From assembly GCF_033153115.1 (NCBI RefSeq), contig NW_026889769.1, positions 3,720,001 to 3,784,000 of the forward strand: 64,000 nt of DNA, in the 5' to 3' direction. The position numbers were made by a program, and so were the translations under genes. Each line of letters opens with the position of its first letter. Position 1 is the first letter of the stretch. The notes under the pieces are model-generated. The model made no database searches. It was not told the DNA's origin and worked only from the letters and a program-made list of their open reading frames with translations. Of the stretch, positions 39,117-49,814 are shown piece after piece. Origin of the DNA: Saccostrea echinata (Eukaryota).

Positions 39117-42100
39117 CTTTTTAAATGGCCCAGTAAACGAAGATTCGGGGGCATTTAGTTTTTGCTCTGTCTGTCTGTCTGTTTGTCCGCAAAAACTTTA
39201 ACCTTGCCTTAACTTTTAATTGGTTAGAGCCAGGGCCTTCATATTTCACTTGCCTGTTCCATGTGACAAGACCTTTCTTTGGGTACCAACATATTTAACT
39301 TCCTGGCCTTGACCTTGGAGTTTGACCCACTTGCAAACTTGTATATTCCTTGTGATAAGACCTTCCTTTGGATACAAATACTCTTGACCTCTTACCTTGG
39401 AGTTTGTCTTACTTTTGAAAAACCTGAACATTGGCCTTATGATTTGAATGGTTGGAGCTAAAGCATGTGTATTTCTTGTGACAAGACCTTCTCTTGTTTG
39501 CAAATAATTGACTTTTGAGTTTGACATACTTAACATTACCCATGGCCATACATGTAACTTTTAACGGTCAATGCTAGGGCTTTCATATTTCACATGTTTA
39601 TTCCTTGTGATGAGACCTCTTTTTGGGGGGATACCAACATTTTTTTATCTCTTCATCTTGGAGTTTGCCTTGCATTTGAGATACTTTAACTTTCGACATG
39701 AGCTACCATATGGGGGCATTAGAATTACACAAACATTTTTTGTAGTTTAACATACCTTTATTCTTTGAAAAAAAAATACGTGAGTCAATCACTTTAGAAA
39801 TATAGTTTTTCGTTTGTGACAAGATAATTTCAGTTTGGCAAAGTTAAACTAAATTTGGACGTAAAACCAACTTTTCCCCTGAAATTTTTAGTGCAAACTC
39901 TCTCGGGACAAATCGTACTTATTTCTTAATTTTAAAAAAGCAGTTATCACTAGTAACGTATTATTGTCTCGAACAAGATTTGAACAGTACGTGTAAACAG
40001 AAATTTACTATTTTTAGAAATCAAAGGGCTTAATGTTATTTTTATTAGCATATTATCAAAGAAATATACATATATTTTGTGTGTGAAGTTGTCTTAGTTG
40101 TAAAGTCGATAAAAACACACAGGATTCAGATGTTAACACGTCAGATCTTTAACCGATCTGAAAATATTTCAAATAAAACTGCCAGGTTCTTATCATGATG
40201 AGTGTTTTATTGGACAAAAAATTTCGGCTTTATTGACTGAAATGTGAATATAGAAAGAGGAAACGATATCATCCAAACGAATTTGAAATAATCTGAGATT
40301 TTATGCACAGCTTTTAAATGTTTGTATACATCAGGTTTATTAACGTTTTAATTCCAGTGACGGATTAGGAGTACCCTACAACCCTACGCTCTAAAATCAA
40401 GAAAGTCGTGTAAAAAAATTGTGTCATTAAACTGATAACTACAGGTATTTTGAGTTTCTGTCGTCGTTTATTTTGCTCGCAAATTTGAAATCCTGGATCC
40501 GCCCCTCTGTATTTAACAGTTTGGAATTTAAAAAAAAATCCCCCTTTTGCACACATATCGGTAATATCAGTACTGAATTTCCCACACTTACATTTACCAT
40601 GCACTCCAGATATAAAGTACCATATAAGGTGTAAATTAGATATGACACCTATATTTATGCCGCTATCACCATACTGGTACACTCTGTCTGTTCTTACACC
40701 ACTTTCTGTCATCTATATTTACTATATTAGTAATTCCTAAATTGACAAGTTCTTAAATTCCATTTGGGTTCATTCTATGGTATATTTATGTAATTACAAG
40801 AAAATTAGAAATCCAATATTTATTAAGTTCTGTAAAGTTAGAATCACTTTAATATATTAATTTTGTTTCACTGCATTAACATAATATGCCTTTTTTAAAG
40901 CTAGGTAATTAAGATTAATTAAAGATAGAGATTTAATTTTAAAAATATCGATGTTTAGGAAAAATGATTTGATCTAGATGATTTACCAAAGTATATATAC
41001 GTATATATGTATGCTTTCCACACTATTGTTATGATATTTATGTTAAATTTTGTCATTAGACGTAAGCACTGTCTTATTGTAGGACCGTAGAACGTATGCG
41101 CCGGGGGGTGGGGGGGGGGGGGGTCCGATATAGTATTCTGCTATAGTAAATTTTCAATTAGATGCTAATCCCCCCCCTTCCCCGTTTTTTGTTGTTGTTG
41201 TTACTGTAAGCTCGAGCACTGGTAAATTCCATGATTTGGGTAGTTATTTTGGAAGGTTGGCCCCTCCACTTTTGAAACCGTTGCTACGGGTCAGTATTGC
41301 TGTATAGTTGATTTATTATCATCTAATCTCGGCTTCTATTTCTTTGCGTTGCACTTTCCTGTTTTTATTGATGAAGAAAATTCTATGATTGGAATCGAGG
41401 TATATTTATAGTATAAAGGTAAAGGCTACTAATCACTTGGAGGTTTATTTCAATAATTCCAATTTTCTTCCTAGACATTCGCCTGTTTACAAAATCTTGT
41501 TTATTTAACGAAACCTGTTCTGATAAAAGTTGAGCCTCTGATAAGTTAATTGTAAATATTCCGATTAATGCTGTCAGCTTGAAATACAATGAACTTTTTG
41601 TTGAGTGAAGCTTCATTCTAAATTCTCTTTTATTCAGATAAGAAAGACATATTCAATATCCCAACGATAATTTTAGTCGGTAGGTAAAGAGAAACGTGAG
41701 AACATGATACACAAATTGAAATTTATTGTTGTTTTGATCCAGAGATGTATCCCGAGTAACCCTGAGAAGATTTCCTGTAAATATCTTACTGATATCTTGA
41801 TAATTAAAAAGAGCCCAGTTGTGAGCTGTAATAATCGTTCACGATTCTGCCATCAGTGGGTATCACCTGTATATAAAAATAATGTTCTCATTGAAGTAGC
41901 AAATCCATATACCAAAGTATAAACATTTTTGTACATCTATTTTTTTGGAGAAAATCATTCGATATGTACATAGGACTGTTTTATATAGTTTTCATGGGGA
42001 CCTTGTTTCATCTGAGATTTTTTTTTCACCCAGACTATTTATGAAGTAATTAGTGTAGCAGAAAATAACATGTGTTTTAAATTTTTCGCCGAGTGCCAAT

Positions 42101-45100
42101 ACATCTCCATCAGTCGTTATTTTCGGTAACTGATTGATGTTCTTAATATTTTCTCACAATCCTGACAAGAGGGAGTCATGAACTTTCATACTCTCTAGTT
42201 TTAATGGTCCCCTCGACTTTCAAGATGAAGAAGACGTTAAAAAATATTAGATATATTTATCAACTAAAAGAGTATTTTGCCGTAAAAGAAACGTGACATG
42301 CTTGTTTCGTATTGAAAAAAAGTATTTCAAATAGAATTTTTCTCGTGAATGAGGTAACATAAGGATTGAGCATTTCAACAGACTGAAATCAAATTAGAAA
42401 GAACATTAACTGATTTCTTCTTTTGAGAATAATTGAGAGGTTCTTTTGTTAATGCATTTTCATTCACTCCTGTTTTGAAGTTGGAATTTTATTTGTGTAG
42501 GAAACATTTGCTTTGTAATTAGAAACATCTAGAAGTGATATCTGATGAAAAAGCAATAAACATTTATCTAAACGGTGATGAATAGTACGTTAATTGTCAA
42601 CATCTGCAGTAAAAACTAATATTATGTGCTATCCAAACATTTTCTATTTGTTTATTAGATGAAAACAAAAAATAAGAGAATCTAGTGCTCTGATTAAGAG
42701 TTTTGTCAATAAATTGTGTAAAGTTAATTGAAGTAAATGTTATTTCTTCAATCTTCTAAACATTTTTGTTAACATGTTTTTGTACAAACAGTTCCAGAGG
42801 TCATAAGGGAAAAAGAGAAAAAAAACCGAACTAACTTCAAGCCATCGTAAAAGTTTAAATGAATACTTTCAATAGCTTTGGCTTATCAATTTTTATTTTA
42901 TTCATAACCTTTTCCTTATTTACTTATACTAATTCAGTAATTGATTATTTCAGCTATTGTGGTGCGCTTTTTGACTGGAAGATATCTAAGTGAATACGCA
43001 TCTCTGGAGGAAGTGACGTATGAAAGAAATGTCACAGTTGATGAAAAGCAAGTGTCGATTAAAATAACAGACGTTGCAGGGAAGGTATGTTAAAAAAATA
43101 TATAAATCAACAAATAATTTTTTTTCTTCAATACATAGAAAATAAAAAAAAAAATAGTGGCTATCATCTTATCTTAATTAATAAAAGTATTTTCTGTGGA
43201 TAAAAACCAAAATTTTGTAACAGCAGTCAACTAATTTAGCGTAACGAATAATTATAACGCCAAAATATATCTTTAATCGCTAAGTAAAGTACATTTCAGA
43301 CTGGAATCAGATCACTAGGAGATATAATCCACAGTATTTGAAATACTCTGCGTAAAGGATTTCATCTTTAAGACACAAATATCGTGTTTCGCGATTAAGC
43401 TGTCGGAAGCAAGTCTCTAACTGCAACCTTCTCACTGTACATATATTTGTGTTTACGTTTTATAATATTTATCTATAATTAAAAGCCAAGAATTTTTAAG
43501 CTGTAAAGATTTAGTGGAGATTCCTCTTGTTTATCCGATTTTTTAAAGCCTTTGATATAAAAATGTTTGCTCTTTTATTAAGAATAATAGTATTGGTGTC
43601 AAAATTTTTCACCTTTGTTTAAAAGAATGTCGATTCTTAATCTCTTTTGGCTTTGGCTTAGACTTCTTTTCACAGTGAAAAAGATAACTGACATATTAAG
43701 GGCATTTTCAAAGTATTAATTGTTACGTTTACAGAACCTGGACAGGAAGTCGACCTCAAGGGATTGGTTGCATAAAATAGATGGCGCTGTGATCGTTTAC
43801 TCCGTGACAGACCGGAACAGTTATGACATAGCGGAAGTCGTCATGGATTGGCTGAGGAAAGAAAAGAAACCAAATCAGATTATTCCAATGGTCTTGTTAG
43901 GAAACAAATGTGATTTAGAACATTCCAGGTTCTTACAACTTTATGGAAGTCAGAGTCTAACCTTGAATTTGCAAAGAGTACTTGGATACAATTCCTTGAA
44001 CTCGCATTCTAGCAGTGCTTTCTCCTGTGCTACATTGCATTCGAAACATTTTCCAAACATTTTGCTTAATTCTGCAGACGTTTGACAAATATTTATAATT
44101 TAGAAGTCATACATTATCGTGTTTATTTAGTCGTGAATATACGATGAATCAATTCAGAGGAACATATGCAACATCTTCAAATATCATTTACAGCAATTTA
44201 GAAACATACTCATCGTCTGGTTAAATAAACCTGATTGATCAATCTTAACATAAACATATTAACCTTACCACACAAGCAATTTCTTTAAAATGATATAGGT
44301 TATGACTTGCCCCCCCCCCCCCCCATCCCGACCTCCAGTCCATTGACAATAAATCCATTCTACATACTCCAAACTTATTTGAATTTAAGACTACCTGACA
44401 TATGTGTATTATGACGTAACCCTACATGTGGCCAGGGCTCCCCTCTAACACTCTTCATGTTTTCCTTTTCAGAACTGTAACAAAACAACCAACAGAGGAG
44501 TTGGAATGGCGAACAGATGGATTAATGTTGACGGAATGTTCGGCCTCTGCTAATACGGAGAACATTAAATGCGTGTTTCACGAGCTCATTAGAAAGGTAC
44601 TGTATCTCCTTCTATTCTTTCAGTGCTGTGTGTTAGCACAAAAATTATTGTACTCTAAGTTATTGGTACGGGTATTAGATCAGTAAAACACTTTAATTCA
44701 CCTACAAGTTCGTTGTCCAAGGCTCGGATTTTTCATACGAGTTACCCTTCAAGTGTTTGAATAGGTTATAATAGTTCGAAACGCATACTTTCAGAATCTT
44801 GGACTAAATGATTGCGTTAGCAGCACTTCGTTTAAATTCTTATAATAAGTCTTATTTCCCTTGCAATATATTTTTTATCTGAGAATTTAAAGGTTTTCTT
44901 TTTTTGGTTGTTTGTCATGTATCATCGATACAAAACCTAATGAATTTACACATGTGACATTGACCTTTCACTGCTTTGAGTTATAATTCTTTGATCAAGG
45001 TTACTGGACATTCCTAAAGCAGGGAAATTAAATACGTAATGTATTACTCTTTGATGCACAGACTGCCTTATCACACAAGGTCTCCCACAGAAGAGACCCT

Positions 45101-45375
45101 TTTAAATTTTAACAGGGTTTTCATGCAATCACTGCTTTACTCATTAAATTTGTTGTTTATTTACTTATTTTTGTTTTGGTGCATTGTAACTTGTTTTAAT
45201 ATTTCTGAATTGTATCAACTATCTGCATTACTTACAGATAAGTGAAAAAAGGGATTCGTCATCGAAAGCACAACGAAAACTTTCTCATGCACAGATTGGA
45301 TCTCCGAAATTAATTCGAGCGTCATTAAGGAGACGTTTTAGTGTGTTTACTCGAGAGCGAACCTCTACTATGTGA
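36894..45375 (+). CDS. RERG/RERGL/RASL-like Ras-family small GTPase, 5 exons, ~213 aa, no CAAX box
   Basis: Exons 36894-36948 (MKGPINILVLGKEGVGKT), 42954-43084 (AIVVRFLTGRYLSEYAS...DVAGK), 43735-43928 (DGAVIVYSVTD...LLGNKCDL), 44473-44596 (ECSAS...VFHELIRK), 45238-45375 (...RRRFSVFTRERTSTM*). All introns GT-AG and in frame; G1, G4 and G5 motifs present. Confidence 0.88.
38417..38612. mobile_element. Tc1/mariner-type MITE in the first intron of the GTPase gene
   Basis: CTGTATACAGGG...CCCTGTATACAG inverted ends preceded by TA, with TTCGC repeats. Confidence 0.6.
39138..39740 (-). repeat. Helentron-type element of the ~146-bp unit family
   Basis: (GTCT)n, GACCTTGGAGTTTG units and GGGGGCAT...CACAAACA end, as in 14901-15889. 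Confidence 0.7.
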
Positions 45376-46549
45376 AACAGGAAAGCCAGGGTATACTTAT
45401 GAAGTGACAGTTAATCAACAGAGATTCACTCGGATTTGAGAATTAACAGGGTCTCTCTACTTACTAGTATTAAATTACGAAGTTACACTTTCCTCACAAT
45501 TCTTGAATACCACAAAGAAGGAAGGACATTCCAATTCAAAAACACTTTAAATTTCATTTGGAGAATTATAAAGTGTGAATGTTGACGAGTACATGCAAGT
45601 ACGAATATTGATTCATTTTATTAATTATCTATTGTATGACATGTACATGTGCAATGAAAAGTATTTATTCTGAAAACTCATTGACAGTGTGTATTGTTAT
45701 CCTTCTTATTTACATGAATATAATCTTCCTGTTTATTCTAATCTACTCTAGTTTACAATCGCCATTCATTCTGATGCCTTTACATTTATAATTTGCACAC
45801 ACACACACACACACACCCACACACACACACACAAATGTTTTTCTTTAGAATAATATGTATGGAAAATGTGATACACACGGAAATATTTTTTTTACGTGTT
45901 CACCTTAAGTGCAAAGCATGTCTGAATCTAGACGTTAACCTAAAATATTCTATCCACTAGCCAAGTTTTTTTCTTCAAATAAATAAATGATATGCACTAT
46001 TTCAAACAATTTTATTATAATTCAAGACAAAATTTAAGGTAGTACACTAATAATGGCACTATCGCTCTTGGAACGAGCGTGGAAACGAAAACAATAGGGT
46101 AACGATGCGAAGGAGAAGAGGAGTCTATATGCGAGGGCTACAACTCGTGTACATGTACTTAAAATACAACTGATGGTAATCTCGCTCCAGCGTCCTTTTG
46201 TGGTACCTCTCGCTACCCCATTCTGTTGCTCCCACATTCTCGCTCTATAGCCCTTACGGCAATAAACCAGGTGCATGTAGCCCCATCAGTTTATCAGGAG
46301 AAAGTATGCATTTAATGTTTTATAAATACTACAAAAGGCTGTATGTAGCATGACTGCTATGTTTAATATAATAGTTTTCATAAAAGAATACATGACATTT
46401 CCACAACTCTTTATTAATTGAGAGTTTAATGAGATTTTTGCCAGTAAATTGAATTTGTGGTTTAATTTCACGGATTAAACTATAAGAACAATTCATAATA
46501 CTACAGTATATAGCGTAATAATTGCTGCCGAGAAGAAATGGAACACCAT

Positions 46550-48916
46550 CTATAAAACTTCTAAATTTGATGGACCTCCTGGTGCGTCGACCTCTCTGGA
46601 GGGATGACAATATGCATGTATGATTCTTTTGATTTCCTGCGACTGACTGTGATGCCTTCGTTTCTTAAACATGGAACACGAGTCTCCTAAAACCTTTGGT
46701 ACAAGACATACAATAATTGTGGCTGCAGCTTGTGTAAGTATACTTAAGTTCTTAGAGGCGGAAAATTCAAATAAGAGATCCACAGAAATATATAAAATAA
46801 GAACAATAACGCTGAGTTTTAACAAGGAGATAAAAATCTGCTGTCTTATTGGTCTGTACTTCTTCACAATTAAAAAGAAAAGATCTTTCGGGATGCCTTT
46901 GCATTCTTCCTCCCTTTTGAACAAAGATGTGTCTGGATATTGACCATACTTGTGTATTTTCTTGCATATTTTTCTGGTATGCAGGAATATATTATCGTAA
47001 ACCTTAGAAATGTCATTAAGACTGTCGAACATGTACATAAGGACCGTAAAAGAAAATATAAGGTATCCGTACGTTACCTCTGGATGGGCAAATAGTCCAG
47101 TGTATGTATACACAAACACTCCACAAATGAAGACGAAGCTATCGACAAAAATTATACTGAACATGTAATTGCTAAATGCCACAAAACAAAACGCAAAAAG
47201 ACAGCATATGATTTTTAATGGGACACAGATATCTAGATCCCGCCAAGGTGCAATAACGTATGCGCGTGCTATTGTCATAATGAAACTAATCAATGGAATT
47301 CCATAAAGCAAAAGGCATAACGCTAGTTCCAAAACAGAAAACAAAACATACAGAGGTGCTATGAAAAGAAATATTCTTCCGATAAATGCTGATTTCCTCC
47401 ATGCGTTAAGACTGTACTTATTCCAGCGCCTGATCTGTGTGATTACAGCAAATTTCCAAAAAGATGGATTCAGAACCATAAAAAATTGCGATAAGAAGAA
47501 ACGGAATATTTTTTCATATCCATTAATAGATTCCGTTGTTTTCATGGCACCAAATTTCACTCGAACAAATGCATCAACTTTCAGAGGAGATGTGATTTTA
47601 TTTTTGTTCTCAACTAATCCTTTTGCAAGAAATGTTGCCAAATCGGAGGGAACGCATGTACTTAATATGAAACACACGGCATATAGCAAACATGCTAGAA
47701 AAGGTCCCCCGAACACTCGAAGAAAATTTTTACTGCTTAACTCGTATCCCGCTAACATAGACTGAAAATCATTGGGCACACCTTTTTTTACACTTGCAAC
47801 TATATCGTTGTATTGCATGAGTCCATGCAGCAGTACCTTCAGAGCGATGATTGATATACTTACGAAAAAGAAAGTGATTCTAACAATTCTGGAAGTCCAA
47901 ATCGGGCATTTTACACAACAATATTTAAAAATACTCGTCACAATGGTTCCAATATGTATAGGATTGTAGAAAATCCAACTTTCCTTCTTTCCAATTAATC
48001 GAATATGACTTTCCATATCACTGCTTGGAAAGTTTTGGAGTTCATGATAATTAGATCTACCACTGTGTGTGATTTCATGGACGTATTTCAGTAACCACAC
48101 TAGAATAAGAGGAAAATACATGTATAAAACCAGACCAAGAACAAATGGTAACTTCCAGCCGATTTTTCTGTATTTCAGGTATGTTCCAGAGCACTCCAAG
48201 ATTCGTGTCTTCTCCAAGAAATTCCACTTCCAACGACAACATCGATAACCCATTGCTTCCAGGGGACAAATGACATTGAGGCAGAGCAAATAAAGTGCAT
48301 GGCTCTTAATGAATATGCGTTCTCTGTAACACCAGTAGCTCTGATTATAATTCTCCACCATGTCGTTAACATCGCCATCTTTAGTATAAGATACAAGATA
48401 ATCTGTAAGATTGGCTAGAGCTAAAGAAATCCGCTGTGTTGTCTCGTTGGCGCCATATTGGATTTGACAGTTTCCATTAACTCTTAATGGAACAGAAAAA
48501 TTTTCCAGAGCGTATACATCTAAGAGACCAAGAGACCAGACCCGGTATCCTAACGGCCAGTTTAGGTATTGCCTCGAACCTTTGGGTCCAGGAAATGTCC
48601 ATGTCCATTTGTTGCCTTGTATAACACATTTTGTTTCATTGATTTGATGACGGGGAACGTTCTCAAAGCGGAGCGCAAAATTTACAAGACTATATGAGTG
48701 CTGTGCAACTTCGTGAAGAAACCTTTCCTTGGTTGATGCTGACACAGAAAACCAACATGCGGAGTCTACTCCACTAGAGTATGGGTAAGTGTAGTCCCAG
48801 TATGGACAAACATCTGTATTTCCGGGAGTTACTTGTGTCCCTTCACTTGCGTCCTCTTCAGCTAAGGCTGCCTGGAGGACTACCAAACTACAAATTATGT
48901 GGTAGATTTTTTTCAT
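46550..48916 (-). CDS. Uncharacterised intronless 788-aa membrane protein: signal peptide, Cys/Trp-rich ~230-aa ectodomain, ~9-10 TM helices
   Basis: Long uninterrupted ORF in AT-rich DNA. MKKIYHIICSLVVLQAALA|EE signal peptide; hydrophobic stretches such as LPFVLGLVLYMYFPLILVWLL, VFGGPFLACLLYAVCFIL, YGYLIFSFTVLMYMF and IFISLLKLSVIVLILYISV. Confidence 0.85.
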   Translation of the reverse strand: MKKIYHIICSLVVLQAALAEEDASEGTQVTPGNTDVCPYWDYTYPYSSGVDSACWFSVSASTKERFLHEVAQHSYSLVNFALRFENVPRHQINETKCVIQGNKWTWTFPGPKGSRQYLNWPLGYRVWSLGLLDVYALENFSVPLRVNGNCQIQYGANETTQRISLALANLTDYLVSYTKDGDVNDMVENYNQSYWCYRERIFIKSHALYLLCLNVICPLEAMGYRCCRWKWNFLEKTRILECSGTYLKYRKIGWKLPFVLGLVLYMYFPLILVWLLKYVHEITHSGRSNYHELQNFPSSDMESHIRLIGKKESWIFYNPIHIGTIVTSIFKYCCVKCPIWTSRIVRITFFFVSISIIALKVLLHGLMQYNDIVASVKKGVPNDFQSMLAGYELSSKNFLRVFGGPFLACLLYAVCFILSTCVPSDLATFLAKGLVENKNKITSPLKVDAFVRVKFGAMKTTESINGYEKIFRFFLSQFFMVLNPSFWKFAVITQIRRWNKYSLNAWRKSAFIGRIFLFIAPLYVLFSVLELALCLLLYGIPLISFIMTIARAYVIAPWRDLDICVPLKIICCLFAFCFVAFSNYMFSIIFVDSFVFICGVFVYTYTGLFAHPEVTYGYLIFSFTVLMYMFDSLNDISKVYDNIFLHTRKICKKIHKYGQYPDTSLFKREEECKGIPKDLFFLIVKKYRPIRQQIFISLLKLSVIVLILYISVDLLFEFSASKNLSILTQAAATIIVCLVPKVLGDSCSMFKKRRHHSQSQEIKRIIHAYCHPSREVDAPGGPSNLEVL

Positions 48917-49483
48917 AACGAATCGTATTTCTTGGTATTAAGTCAAATAATGACACTATTAACTTCCTTTTTCTAGATTCTTTAAACACTTTACTGTTCA
49001 AGTATGCGTTTCAACAGCGATAATTCGGTCGCTGATTCATTTAACGTCCAGGAAATTTTTGTTTGATACGGATGATAGCCATTATTACATCCTTTATCGA
49101 ATATGGGAACTTCCCTGTAGGAAAAAAATCTAATTAGTCCCGCCTTTTACACACCCAAAATGATTTAACAAAAATGTCATATTGGAAGTACTTATATATA
49201 TGACAAGTAAGGAAAAACTCACCATATTTTAAACCATTAATGAATTATTCTTCCTCAGTACAGAAATTTGAACAAGTCCCTACATTATTTATTACAAGAA
49301 TCCCCTTTAAGCTACATTGACAATCCAGGAAGTTTACGACCCCAAGAGGATATTTTAAATCAAATAAGATTCGTAACACCCGAACCAATACATCAGTGTG
49401 CAATTATTTCTCTTATTTTATATATAAATCTTTCATTGCATTATAGTTTTACTAAAATTTAAATTATCCAATGAAATGCTAAT

Positions 49484-49741
49484 CATAGATGTGTCGTAAC
49501 GCCACAAATGCCCTCGCCGGCAGCCAAAATTTCAAATGCCATATTAGTTTTAAATTTGTATTCGAACTTGACCTGTATTTTCTGGTAAAATACCTGCATA
49601 TGCAATTTCAACCTTTTGCATACATCCCTACAAAAGTTAGAGAGCGAAAACTGAAAATTTCTTATTTTTTCTAAGTTCAAGAGGGATAACTCTGTCAAAA
49701 ATCATCGCAGCATGACCAAATTCAAACTTGACCTGCGTATT

Positions 49742-49814
<73 letters not shown>

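What the first reader, a model, noticed from the sequence alone, without database searches (positions are those of the whole stretch)
46550..48916. Orphan intronless receptor/channel-like protein: Cys-rich ectodomain on a ~10-TM body
Seen: a clean 2.37-kb single-exon ORF with a cleavable signal peptide and a ~230-aa ectodomain rich in Cys/Trp and N-glycosylation sequons (NET, NFS, NLT, NQS). About 9-10 hydrophobic helices follow, separated by basic, probably cytosolic, segments (e.g. GIPKDLFFLIVKKYRPIR). The layout does not match any GPCR, MFS/SLC, Cys-loop, DEG/ENaC or TRP pattern I recognise. Inference: a member of an undescribed invertebrate family of ligand-sensing receptors or gated channels. 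It is the most plausible unexplained system in this window.
Basis: partly seen in the sequence, partly recalled or inferred. Interest (0 to 1): 0.7.

Follow-up and report, generated by a model that had tools for sequence, protein, structure and literature searches.

The report
Undescribed nine-helix oyster surface-receptor superfamily
This is a real, transcribed single-exon oyster gene for a membrane protein with a predicted sugar-coated outer domain and nine predicted membrane helices; it belongs to an unnamed family found across molluscs, annelids, brachiopods and ribbon worms, has a dozen intact relatives in the same genome, and is likely a new kind of cell-surface sensor, though nothing here tests what it senses.

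The parts
46550..48916 (-). Single-exon CDS, 788 aa (P0001), class I member of the family
48860..48916 (-). Predicted signal peptide, residues 1-19
   Evidence: sequence; family-wide N-terminal hydrophobic stretch in 84 of 97; not run through SignalP
48167..48859 (-). Ectodomain, residues 20-250: alpha/beta fold, 5 sequons. Inferred disulfides C54-C150, C196-C226, C227-C242 and subfamily-only C212-C217. Conserved W104-x-W106, S128-x-G130-L-L132
   Evidence: C227/C242 phi 0.75, C212/C217 phi 1.0; the other two pairs by elimination
48086..48166 (-). TM1, residues 251-277, with near-invariant P269
47819..47890 (-). TM2, residues 343-366, starting with S-R343-x-x-R346 (class I)
47705..47818 (-). 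Conserved outer loop 367-404 with short helices, ending in G-G-P (class I); candidate lid or re-entrant element (inferred)
   Evidence: highest mean conservation among the loops, 0.45
47648..47704 (-). TM3, residues 405-423
47384..47647 (-). Predicted cytosolic loop 424-511 with G466-Y467 and F486-W487...R497
47243..47383 (-). TM4-TM5 hairpin, residues 512-558; intramembrane E530 (102 of ~107 class I, absent in class II) and P541 (both classes)
47084..47224 (-). TM6, one 45-residue helix (565-611); acidic D/E592 is the charged membrane position shared by both classes
46997..47083 (-). TM7, residues 612-640, with Y618, Y628, Y640 conserved in both classes
46841..46996 (-). Predicted cytosolic loop 641-692 with the G674-I-P-x-x-L-F...P689 motif
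46682..46840 (-). TM8 (693-720), short outer loop, TM9 (726-745) with P740 in 41 of 41 sequences of the joint alignment
46553..46681 (-). Basic, poorly conserved C-terminal tail, predicted cytosolic
   Evidence: K+R 19%
46270..46549 (-). 3' UTR at least to 46270 (same contig as the CDS); AATAAA-like site near 46415

Best explanation
This is a transcribed, conserved single-exon gene of an unnamed lophotrochozoan membrane-protein superfamily, and its product is likely a cell-surface receptor whose disulfide-bonded ectodomain would bind an outside cue and open a likely ion-conducting path through the predicted nine-helix body. Shown: the ORF, transcription, conservation, family, two classes in one genome, tandem array with broken copies. 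Predicted: signal peptide, outward-facing glycosylated ectodomain, nine crossings, fold. Inferred: the ectodomain docks on TM1 and the conserved outer loop 367-404 and passes ligand binding to the membrane core; the part shared by both classes (TM6b-TM9 with D/E592, Y618, Y628, Y640, P740) is the gate or pore-forming unit, with proline kinks as hinges; the output is ion flux. Class I in oysters would read one conserved cue (two genes, ectodomain as conserved as the core), while class II would act as a small diversifying repertoire.
For: Outward-facing ectodomain: sequons at four times background only there, in 105 of 105 members; six Cys shared by both classes; confident independent fold, pLDDT 93.7, pTM 0.91. 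The ectodomain appeared only joined to the membrane body in this genome (2 of 2 matches). Charged or polar residues are kept inside predicted membrane helices: E530 in 102 of ~107 class I; position 592 D/E in 58 of ~108 class I and 11 of 11 class II; positions 360, 599, 700, 729 polar in 79-95% of class I. Gene-family behaviour: 10 intact single-frame class II genes at 17-77% identity, about 7 broken or partial copies, and 8 copies within 0.29 Mb of contig C29. That pattern is reported for expanded molluscan nAChRs (PMC6896357, abstract seen) and divergent insect IRs (PMC2924276, passages seen). No catalytic or nucleotide-binding Pfam domain was found in any member scanned, and no internal repeat of the kind many secondary transporters have (hhalign probability at most 1% in 4 of 4 comparisons).
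Against: No ligand, current, tissue or cell-type evidence at all. Polar residues in the membrane fit a transporter, a lipid-uptake protein or an enzyme equally well. E530, R497 and the G-G-P loop are class I only, so there is no single pore signature across the superfamily, and D/E592 is kept in only about half of class I. Conserved-face tests were significant in only 3 of 10 helical stretches. Class I has two copies here and one-to-one oyster orthologues with the ectodomain 71-90% identical, unlike a fast sensory repertoire. Being intronless is weak evidence: two MAM33 ORFs and an ankyrin ORF in this same window are also single-frame. Breaks in the C29 array may partly be assembly errors (not checked with reads). 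Signal peptide plus sequons fit the ER, Golgi or lysosome lumen as well as the cell surface.
Confidence: 0.38

Rival explanations
1. Uptake or export protein for a solute or lipid: the ectodomain would capture a carrier or substrate and the membrane body would move it across, working like STRA6 or SID-1 without being one.
For: Nine crossings with N out and C in matches STRA6's count (nine TM domains, PMC8595884, passage seen). Intramembrane E530 and D/E592. Stable one-to-one orthologues in oysters. One octopus member is auto-labelled STRA6 in UniRef.
Against: PF14752 (STRA6 family) hit none of the members scanned, including the octopus one, while it found 9 matches over cut-off elsewhere in this genome and neither class I locus. 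No internal repeat. Tandem birth-and-death in class II is less typical of housekeeping transporters (inference).
Confidence: 0.25
2. Non-conducting signalling, adhesion or immune-recognition receptor: the ectodomain would bind a protein or microbial ligand, and the large conserved cytosolic loops (424-511, 641-692) would recruit adaptors.
For: Conserved cytosolic motifs in L3 and L7. Class II has larger cytosolic inserts with an invariant Cys cluster. Tandem array with broken copies.
Against: No TIR, death, kinase or other signalling domain in any member scanned. Nine helices with buried charges are more than an anchor needs. The class I ectodomain is not more variable than the core.
Confidence: 0.2
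3. Secretory-pathway protein: an intramembrane enzyme, cargo receptor or chaperone whose 'ectodomain' faces the ER or Golgi lumen.
For: Topology evidence cannot tell lumen from outside. A near-invariant membrane Glu could be catalytic in class I.
Against: That Glu is absent in class II. No His/Ser/Asp cluster is conserved across both classes. No relative appeared among the named clusters outside Lophotrochozoa (17 of 17), which is unusual for core secretory machinery.
Confidence: 0.12
4. Chance ORF, retro-pseudogene, mobile-element or foreign DNA.
For: Single exon; repeats nearby at 49.5-53 kb.
Against: Shuffle maximum 169 codons; transcribed in two studies; intact orthologues in three oyster genera; 7 synonymous to 8 non-synonymous differences, pN/pS 0.31, one-sided P 0.025; no relative confirmed in prokaryote, viral or metagenome scans.
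Confidence: 0.01

Closest known systems
STRA6 / RBP receptor family (PF14752)
   Same: Nine membrane crossings (PMC8595884, passage seen); N out, C in (recalled); the source of an automatic label on one octopus member.
   Different: No PF14752 hit in any member scanned, while true PF14752 matches lie at other loci of this genome. This family has a signal peptide and a folded 200-aa Cys ectodomain.
Expanded molluscan nAChRs, cephalopod chemotactile receptors and divergent IRs (working analogy only)
   Same: Ectodomain on a membrane body; intronless genes in tandem arrays with losses (PMC6896357 abstract; PMC2924276 and PMC11526382 passages).
   Different: Those have 3-4 helices per subunit and Cys-loop or clamshell ligand domains (established knowledge). 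Here there are nine crossings, no Pfam hit to those domains, and an alpha/beta ectodomain.
SID-1/SIDT and GOST (GPR107/TMEM87) proteins (recalled as architectural look-alikes)
   Same: Signal peptide, glycosylated ectodomain, multi-pass body.
Database entries 'uncharacterized protein' LOC134247628 (Saccostrea cucullata), LOC125647777 (Ostrea edulis), LOC144625851 (Crassostrea virginica), KP79_PYT05415 (Mizuhopecten yessoensis)
   Same: Homologues at 88, 69, 66 and 35% identity by their cluster representatives; the first three group as orthologues.
   Different: Sequences are on record but carry no function; none of six identifiers searched occurs in the paper library.
Pfam PF28478 (name unknown)
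   Same: Precomputed on one divergent member, P0110.
   Different: Not in the local Pfam copy, in no paper searched, and not listed for the 8 close relatives. Its span, score and meaning could not be seen.

Membership tests
STRA6 / RBP receptor | Match to PF14752 above cut-off | tested here: not met
   No hit in the query (E<=1), 52 members (E<=0.05) or 21 divergent members including the octopus protein (E<=1); positive control: 9 matches over cut-off at other loci of the genome.
STRA6 / RBP receptor | Nine transmembrane segments | tested here: met
   Nine crossings inferred from model and hydropathy; a count alone is not diagnostic.
STRA6 / RBP receptor | Superposable membrane fold | tested here: inconclusive
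   the membrane core was not folded and searched alone.
STRA6 / RBP receptor | Dimer with calmodulin bound to the C-tail; retinol transport | not testable with these tools
   Needs biochemistry or cryo-EM.
GPCR (classes A, B, C, T2R) | Seven-helix bundle profile | tested here: not met
   No 7tm Pfam hit in any member scanned; nine crossings predicted.
GPCR (classes A, B, C, T2R) | Structural overlap with the 7TM bundle | tested here: inconclusive
Cys-loop, iGluR/IR, DEG/ENaC, P2X and TRP channels | Family ligand-domain or channel-domain profile and 2-6 helices per subunit | tested here: not met
   No such Pfam hit; no PDB sequence hit; nine crossings.
Cys-loop, iGluR/IR, DEG/ENaC, P2X and TRP channels | Ectodomain fold | tested here: inconclusive
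Any ligand-gated channel (functional class) | Oligomer or monomer with a gated ion path | not testable with these tools
   Needs electrophysiology or a structure.
MFS/SLC secondary transporters | Family profile and internal helical repeat | tested here: not met
   No Pfam or NCBIfam hit above cut-off; no repeat by hhalign in 4 of 4 comparisons, though old repeats can be invisible in sequence.
This superfamily (class I and class II as one) | End-to-end homology including ectodomain cysteines | tested here: met
   HHalign 99.4%, E 1.8e-21, 648 columns. Class I profile scores 52-96 bits on 10 of 11 class II proteins (L056 9.8 bits); reversed sequences at most -13.8 bits; 220 local shuffles at most 2.5 bits. 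An ectodomain-only profile scores 11.5-28 bits on 10 of 11.

The most novel reading that the evidence does not exclude
An ancient, overlooked superfamily of ligand-gated ion channels or chemoreceptors, with a new ectodomain fold and a new nine-helix membrane fold, unrelated to GPCRs, Cys-loop, iGluR/IR, DEG/ENaC, TRP or 7TM ion channels. It split into two classes that both survive in oysters, and lophotrochozoans use it as intronless, tandemly duplicated sensor repertoires.
Probability: 0.3. Interest if true: 0.9.

Novelty: categorically new. Interest (0 to 1): 0.64.

Why it matters
Animal receptor and channel families with a new architecture are rare. This one has at least 203 sequence clusters, named members in four phyla, two deep classes and confidently predicted domains, yet no name, paper or solved relative turned up in these searches. 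If it gates ions or senses cues, it adds a receptor class for how bivalves and their kin detect settlement signals, food or microbes. It is directly testable because each gene is one exon and easy to express. Even as a transporter it would offer two candidate new folds for structure work. The novelty rating refers to the family and architecture; the function is unproven, and PF28478 may already list part of it as a domain of unknown function.

Full report
Observation. The finding is a 788-codon ORF on the minus strand, 46550-48916. Chance does not give it: the longest stop-free frame in 100 base-shuffled windows was 169 codons. The named sequons are present (N93, N139, N157, N169, N191) and residues 20-250 hold 10 Cys and 9 Trp. 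The runs offered were only guessed to be RNA. Laid on 41500-49480, they join three GT..AG introns of the neighbouring gene (43082-43733, 43925-44470, 44594-45236), so they are transcript data. In the same runs (4 of 4 laid, at most 3 samples, 2 studies) one contig each spans the ORF, or all but its first ~20 codons, without a joint or a gap in the coding part. The 15 coding differences from the assembly listed are 7 synonymous and 8 non-synonymous, pN/pS 0.31, one-sided P 0.025. Several are shared by all runs and may be alleles or errors of the assembly, so this is a weak test. Contigs cannot show start, level or tissue.

Family. The closest named protein is an uncharacterised Saccostrea cucullata protein at 88%; other oysters are at 66-69% and a scallop at 35%. 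The exhaustive HMMER search found 203 clusters at E<=0.001, of which I saw the best 150. I looked up 30 clusters; 15 had a species name, plus 2. All 17 are lophotrochozoan: bivalves, abalone, octopus, Owenia, Lingula and Tubulanus. The 53 weakest clusters were not visible, so the true range may be wider. No Pfam family reached its cut-off in the query, in 52 chosen members, or in 21 divergent members; NCBIfam and PDB sequences gave nothing credible. One divergent member carries a precomputed accession, PF28478, which the local Pfam lacks and no searched paper names. This is the main open threat to novelty.

The STRA6 lead. UniRef labels an octopus member 'Receptor for retinol uptake STRA6', and STRA6 has nine membrane domains (PMC8595884, passages seen). 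The STRA6 profile PF14752 hit no member scanned, but hit 9 places over cut-off elsewhere in this genome and neither class I locus. I reject membership and keep 'works like an uptake protein' as a rival.

Own genome. Five full-length queries and the ectodomain found only this gene and one single-frame paralogue on contig C1, 774 aa, 39% identical. The C-terminal third found three weak extra hits, E 0.005-0.02, which proved to be long single-frame ORFs with the same layout. Three searches from these converged on one set (lower bounds). It has 10 intact ORFs of 878-1023 aa on six contigs, one 856-aa frame behind a stop near its 5' end, and about six broken or partial copies. Eight copies lie in 42.58-42.87 Mb of C29, three of them intact. 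Homology to class I is solid: HHalign 99.4%, E 1.8e-21 over 648 columns with the ectodomain cysteines in register. The class I profile scored 52-96 bits on 10 of 11; the miss, L056 at 9.8 bits, links through class II at E 2e-41. Reversed controls reached at most -13.8 bits and 220 local shuffles at most 2.5. In a 41-sequence tree (30 of the 110 class I rows chosen, midpoint root) the two classes are separated by one long branch with support 1.0. Shared by both classes are C54, W106, S128, L132, C150, C196, C226, C227, C242, P269, P319, P541, Y618, Y628, Y640, I675, F680 and P740, with an acidic residue at 592 in 11 of 11 class II. E530, R497 and G-G-P are class I only. Class II has no Pfam or PDB sequence match either.

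How it likely works. A folded, disulfide-locked outer domain tied to a nine-helix body with buried charges, no enzyme or adaptor domain, and a gene family that duplicates in intronless tandem arrays and loses copies, is most simply a sensor. The same genomic pattern is reported for expanded molluscan nAChRs (PMC6896357, abstract and outline seen) and divergent IRs (PMC2924276, passages seen). A 2024 review of sensory receptor families (PMC11526382, passages seen) named none like this in the passages I read. I commit to a ligand-gated, likely ion-conducting receptor whose gate is the TM6b-TM9 unit shared by both classes (0.38). Against it: there is no functional evidence, no pore signature common to both classes, only two conserved class I genes in oysters with an ectodomain as conserved as the core, and other single-frame genes in the same window. 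Transporter (0.25), non-conducting receptor (0.20) and secretory-pathway protein (0.12) stay open.

Verdict. This is a real, unnamed membrane-protein superfamily with two classes and confidently modelled domains that have only weak structural neighbours; its function is inferred. Ten paper searches found no description, but subscription journals and supplementary tables were not covered. Interest 0.64.

Noticed in passing
G000 C29:42.58-42.87 Mb; C52:4.58 Mb; C45:0.94 Mb; C47:6.44 and 6.55 Mb; C1:31.97 and 42.90 Mb; C56:2.86 Mb; C2:9.73 Mb (L027-L056): Second, distant class of the same superfamily: 10 intact single-frame genes and about 7 broken or partial copies, with larger cytosolic inserts and an invariant Cys cluster before TM2.
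   Followed up: yes
window 42951-45786 (+): Spliced Ras-family small GTPase gene (PF00071, E 4.6e-9 on one exon), tail to tail with the finding; contigs at 46090-46442 suggest the two 3' UTRs meet or overlap.
   Followed up: partly
window 2679-3455 and 8643-9425 (-): Two tandem single-frame MAM33/C1QBP-family ORFs, 258 and 260 aa (PF02330, E 6e-19 each).
   Followed up: no
window 53220-55022 (-): Single-frame 600-aa ankyrin-repeat ORF in two repeat blocks, covered by a transcript contig. The middle has a SOCS-box-like stretch (recalled motif; no Pfam hit).
   Followed up: no
window 49500-53200: High-copy repeat region with contig depths in the thousands, between the finding and the ankyrin ORF.
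   Followed up: no
window 62311-62646 (-): Fragment of a DDE_Tnp_4 transposase-like endonuclease (E 3.5e-10).
   Followed up: no
G000 C8:10.61-10.63 Mb, C54:44.82-44.86 Mb, C14:1.15 Mb (L010-L014): Several STRA6/RBP-receptor-family matches, clustered on C54 and C8, suggesting a small expansion in this oyster.
   Followed up: no
P0110 (protein collection): Carries precomputed Pfam accession PF28478.1, absent from the local library and from the papers searched.
   Followed up: partly
P0007 and P0013 (scallop): Two class I paralogues with near-adjacent locus tags (KP79_PYT05415, KP79_PYT05420) on contigs of the same length, probably a tandem pair.
   Followed up: no
G000 C1:45.508-45.516 Mb (L016, L017): Exon-sized frames that look like C-type lectin domains (recalled pattern; the one scanned had no Pfam hit at E<=0.01) lie 6-14 kb from the class I paralogue.
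   Followed up: partly
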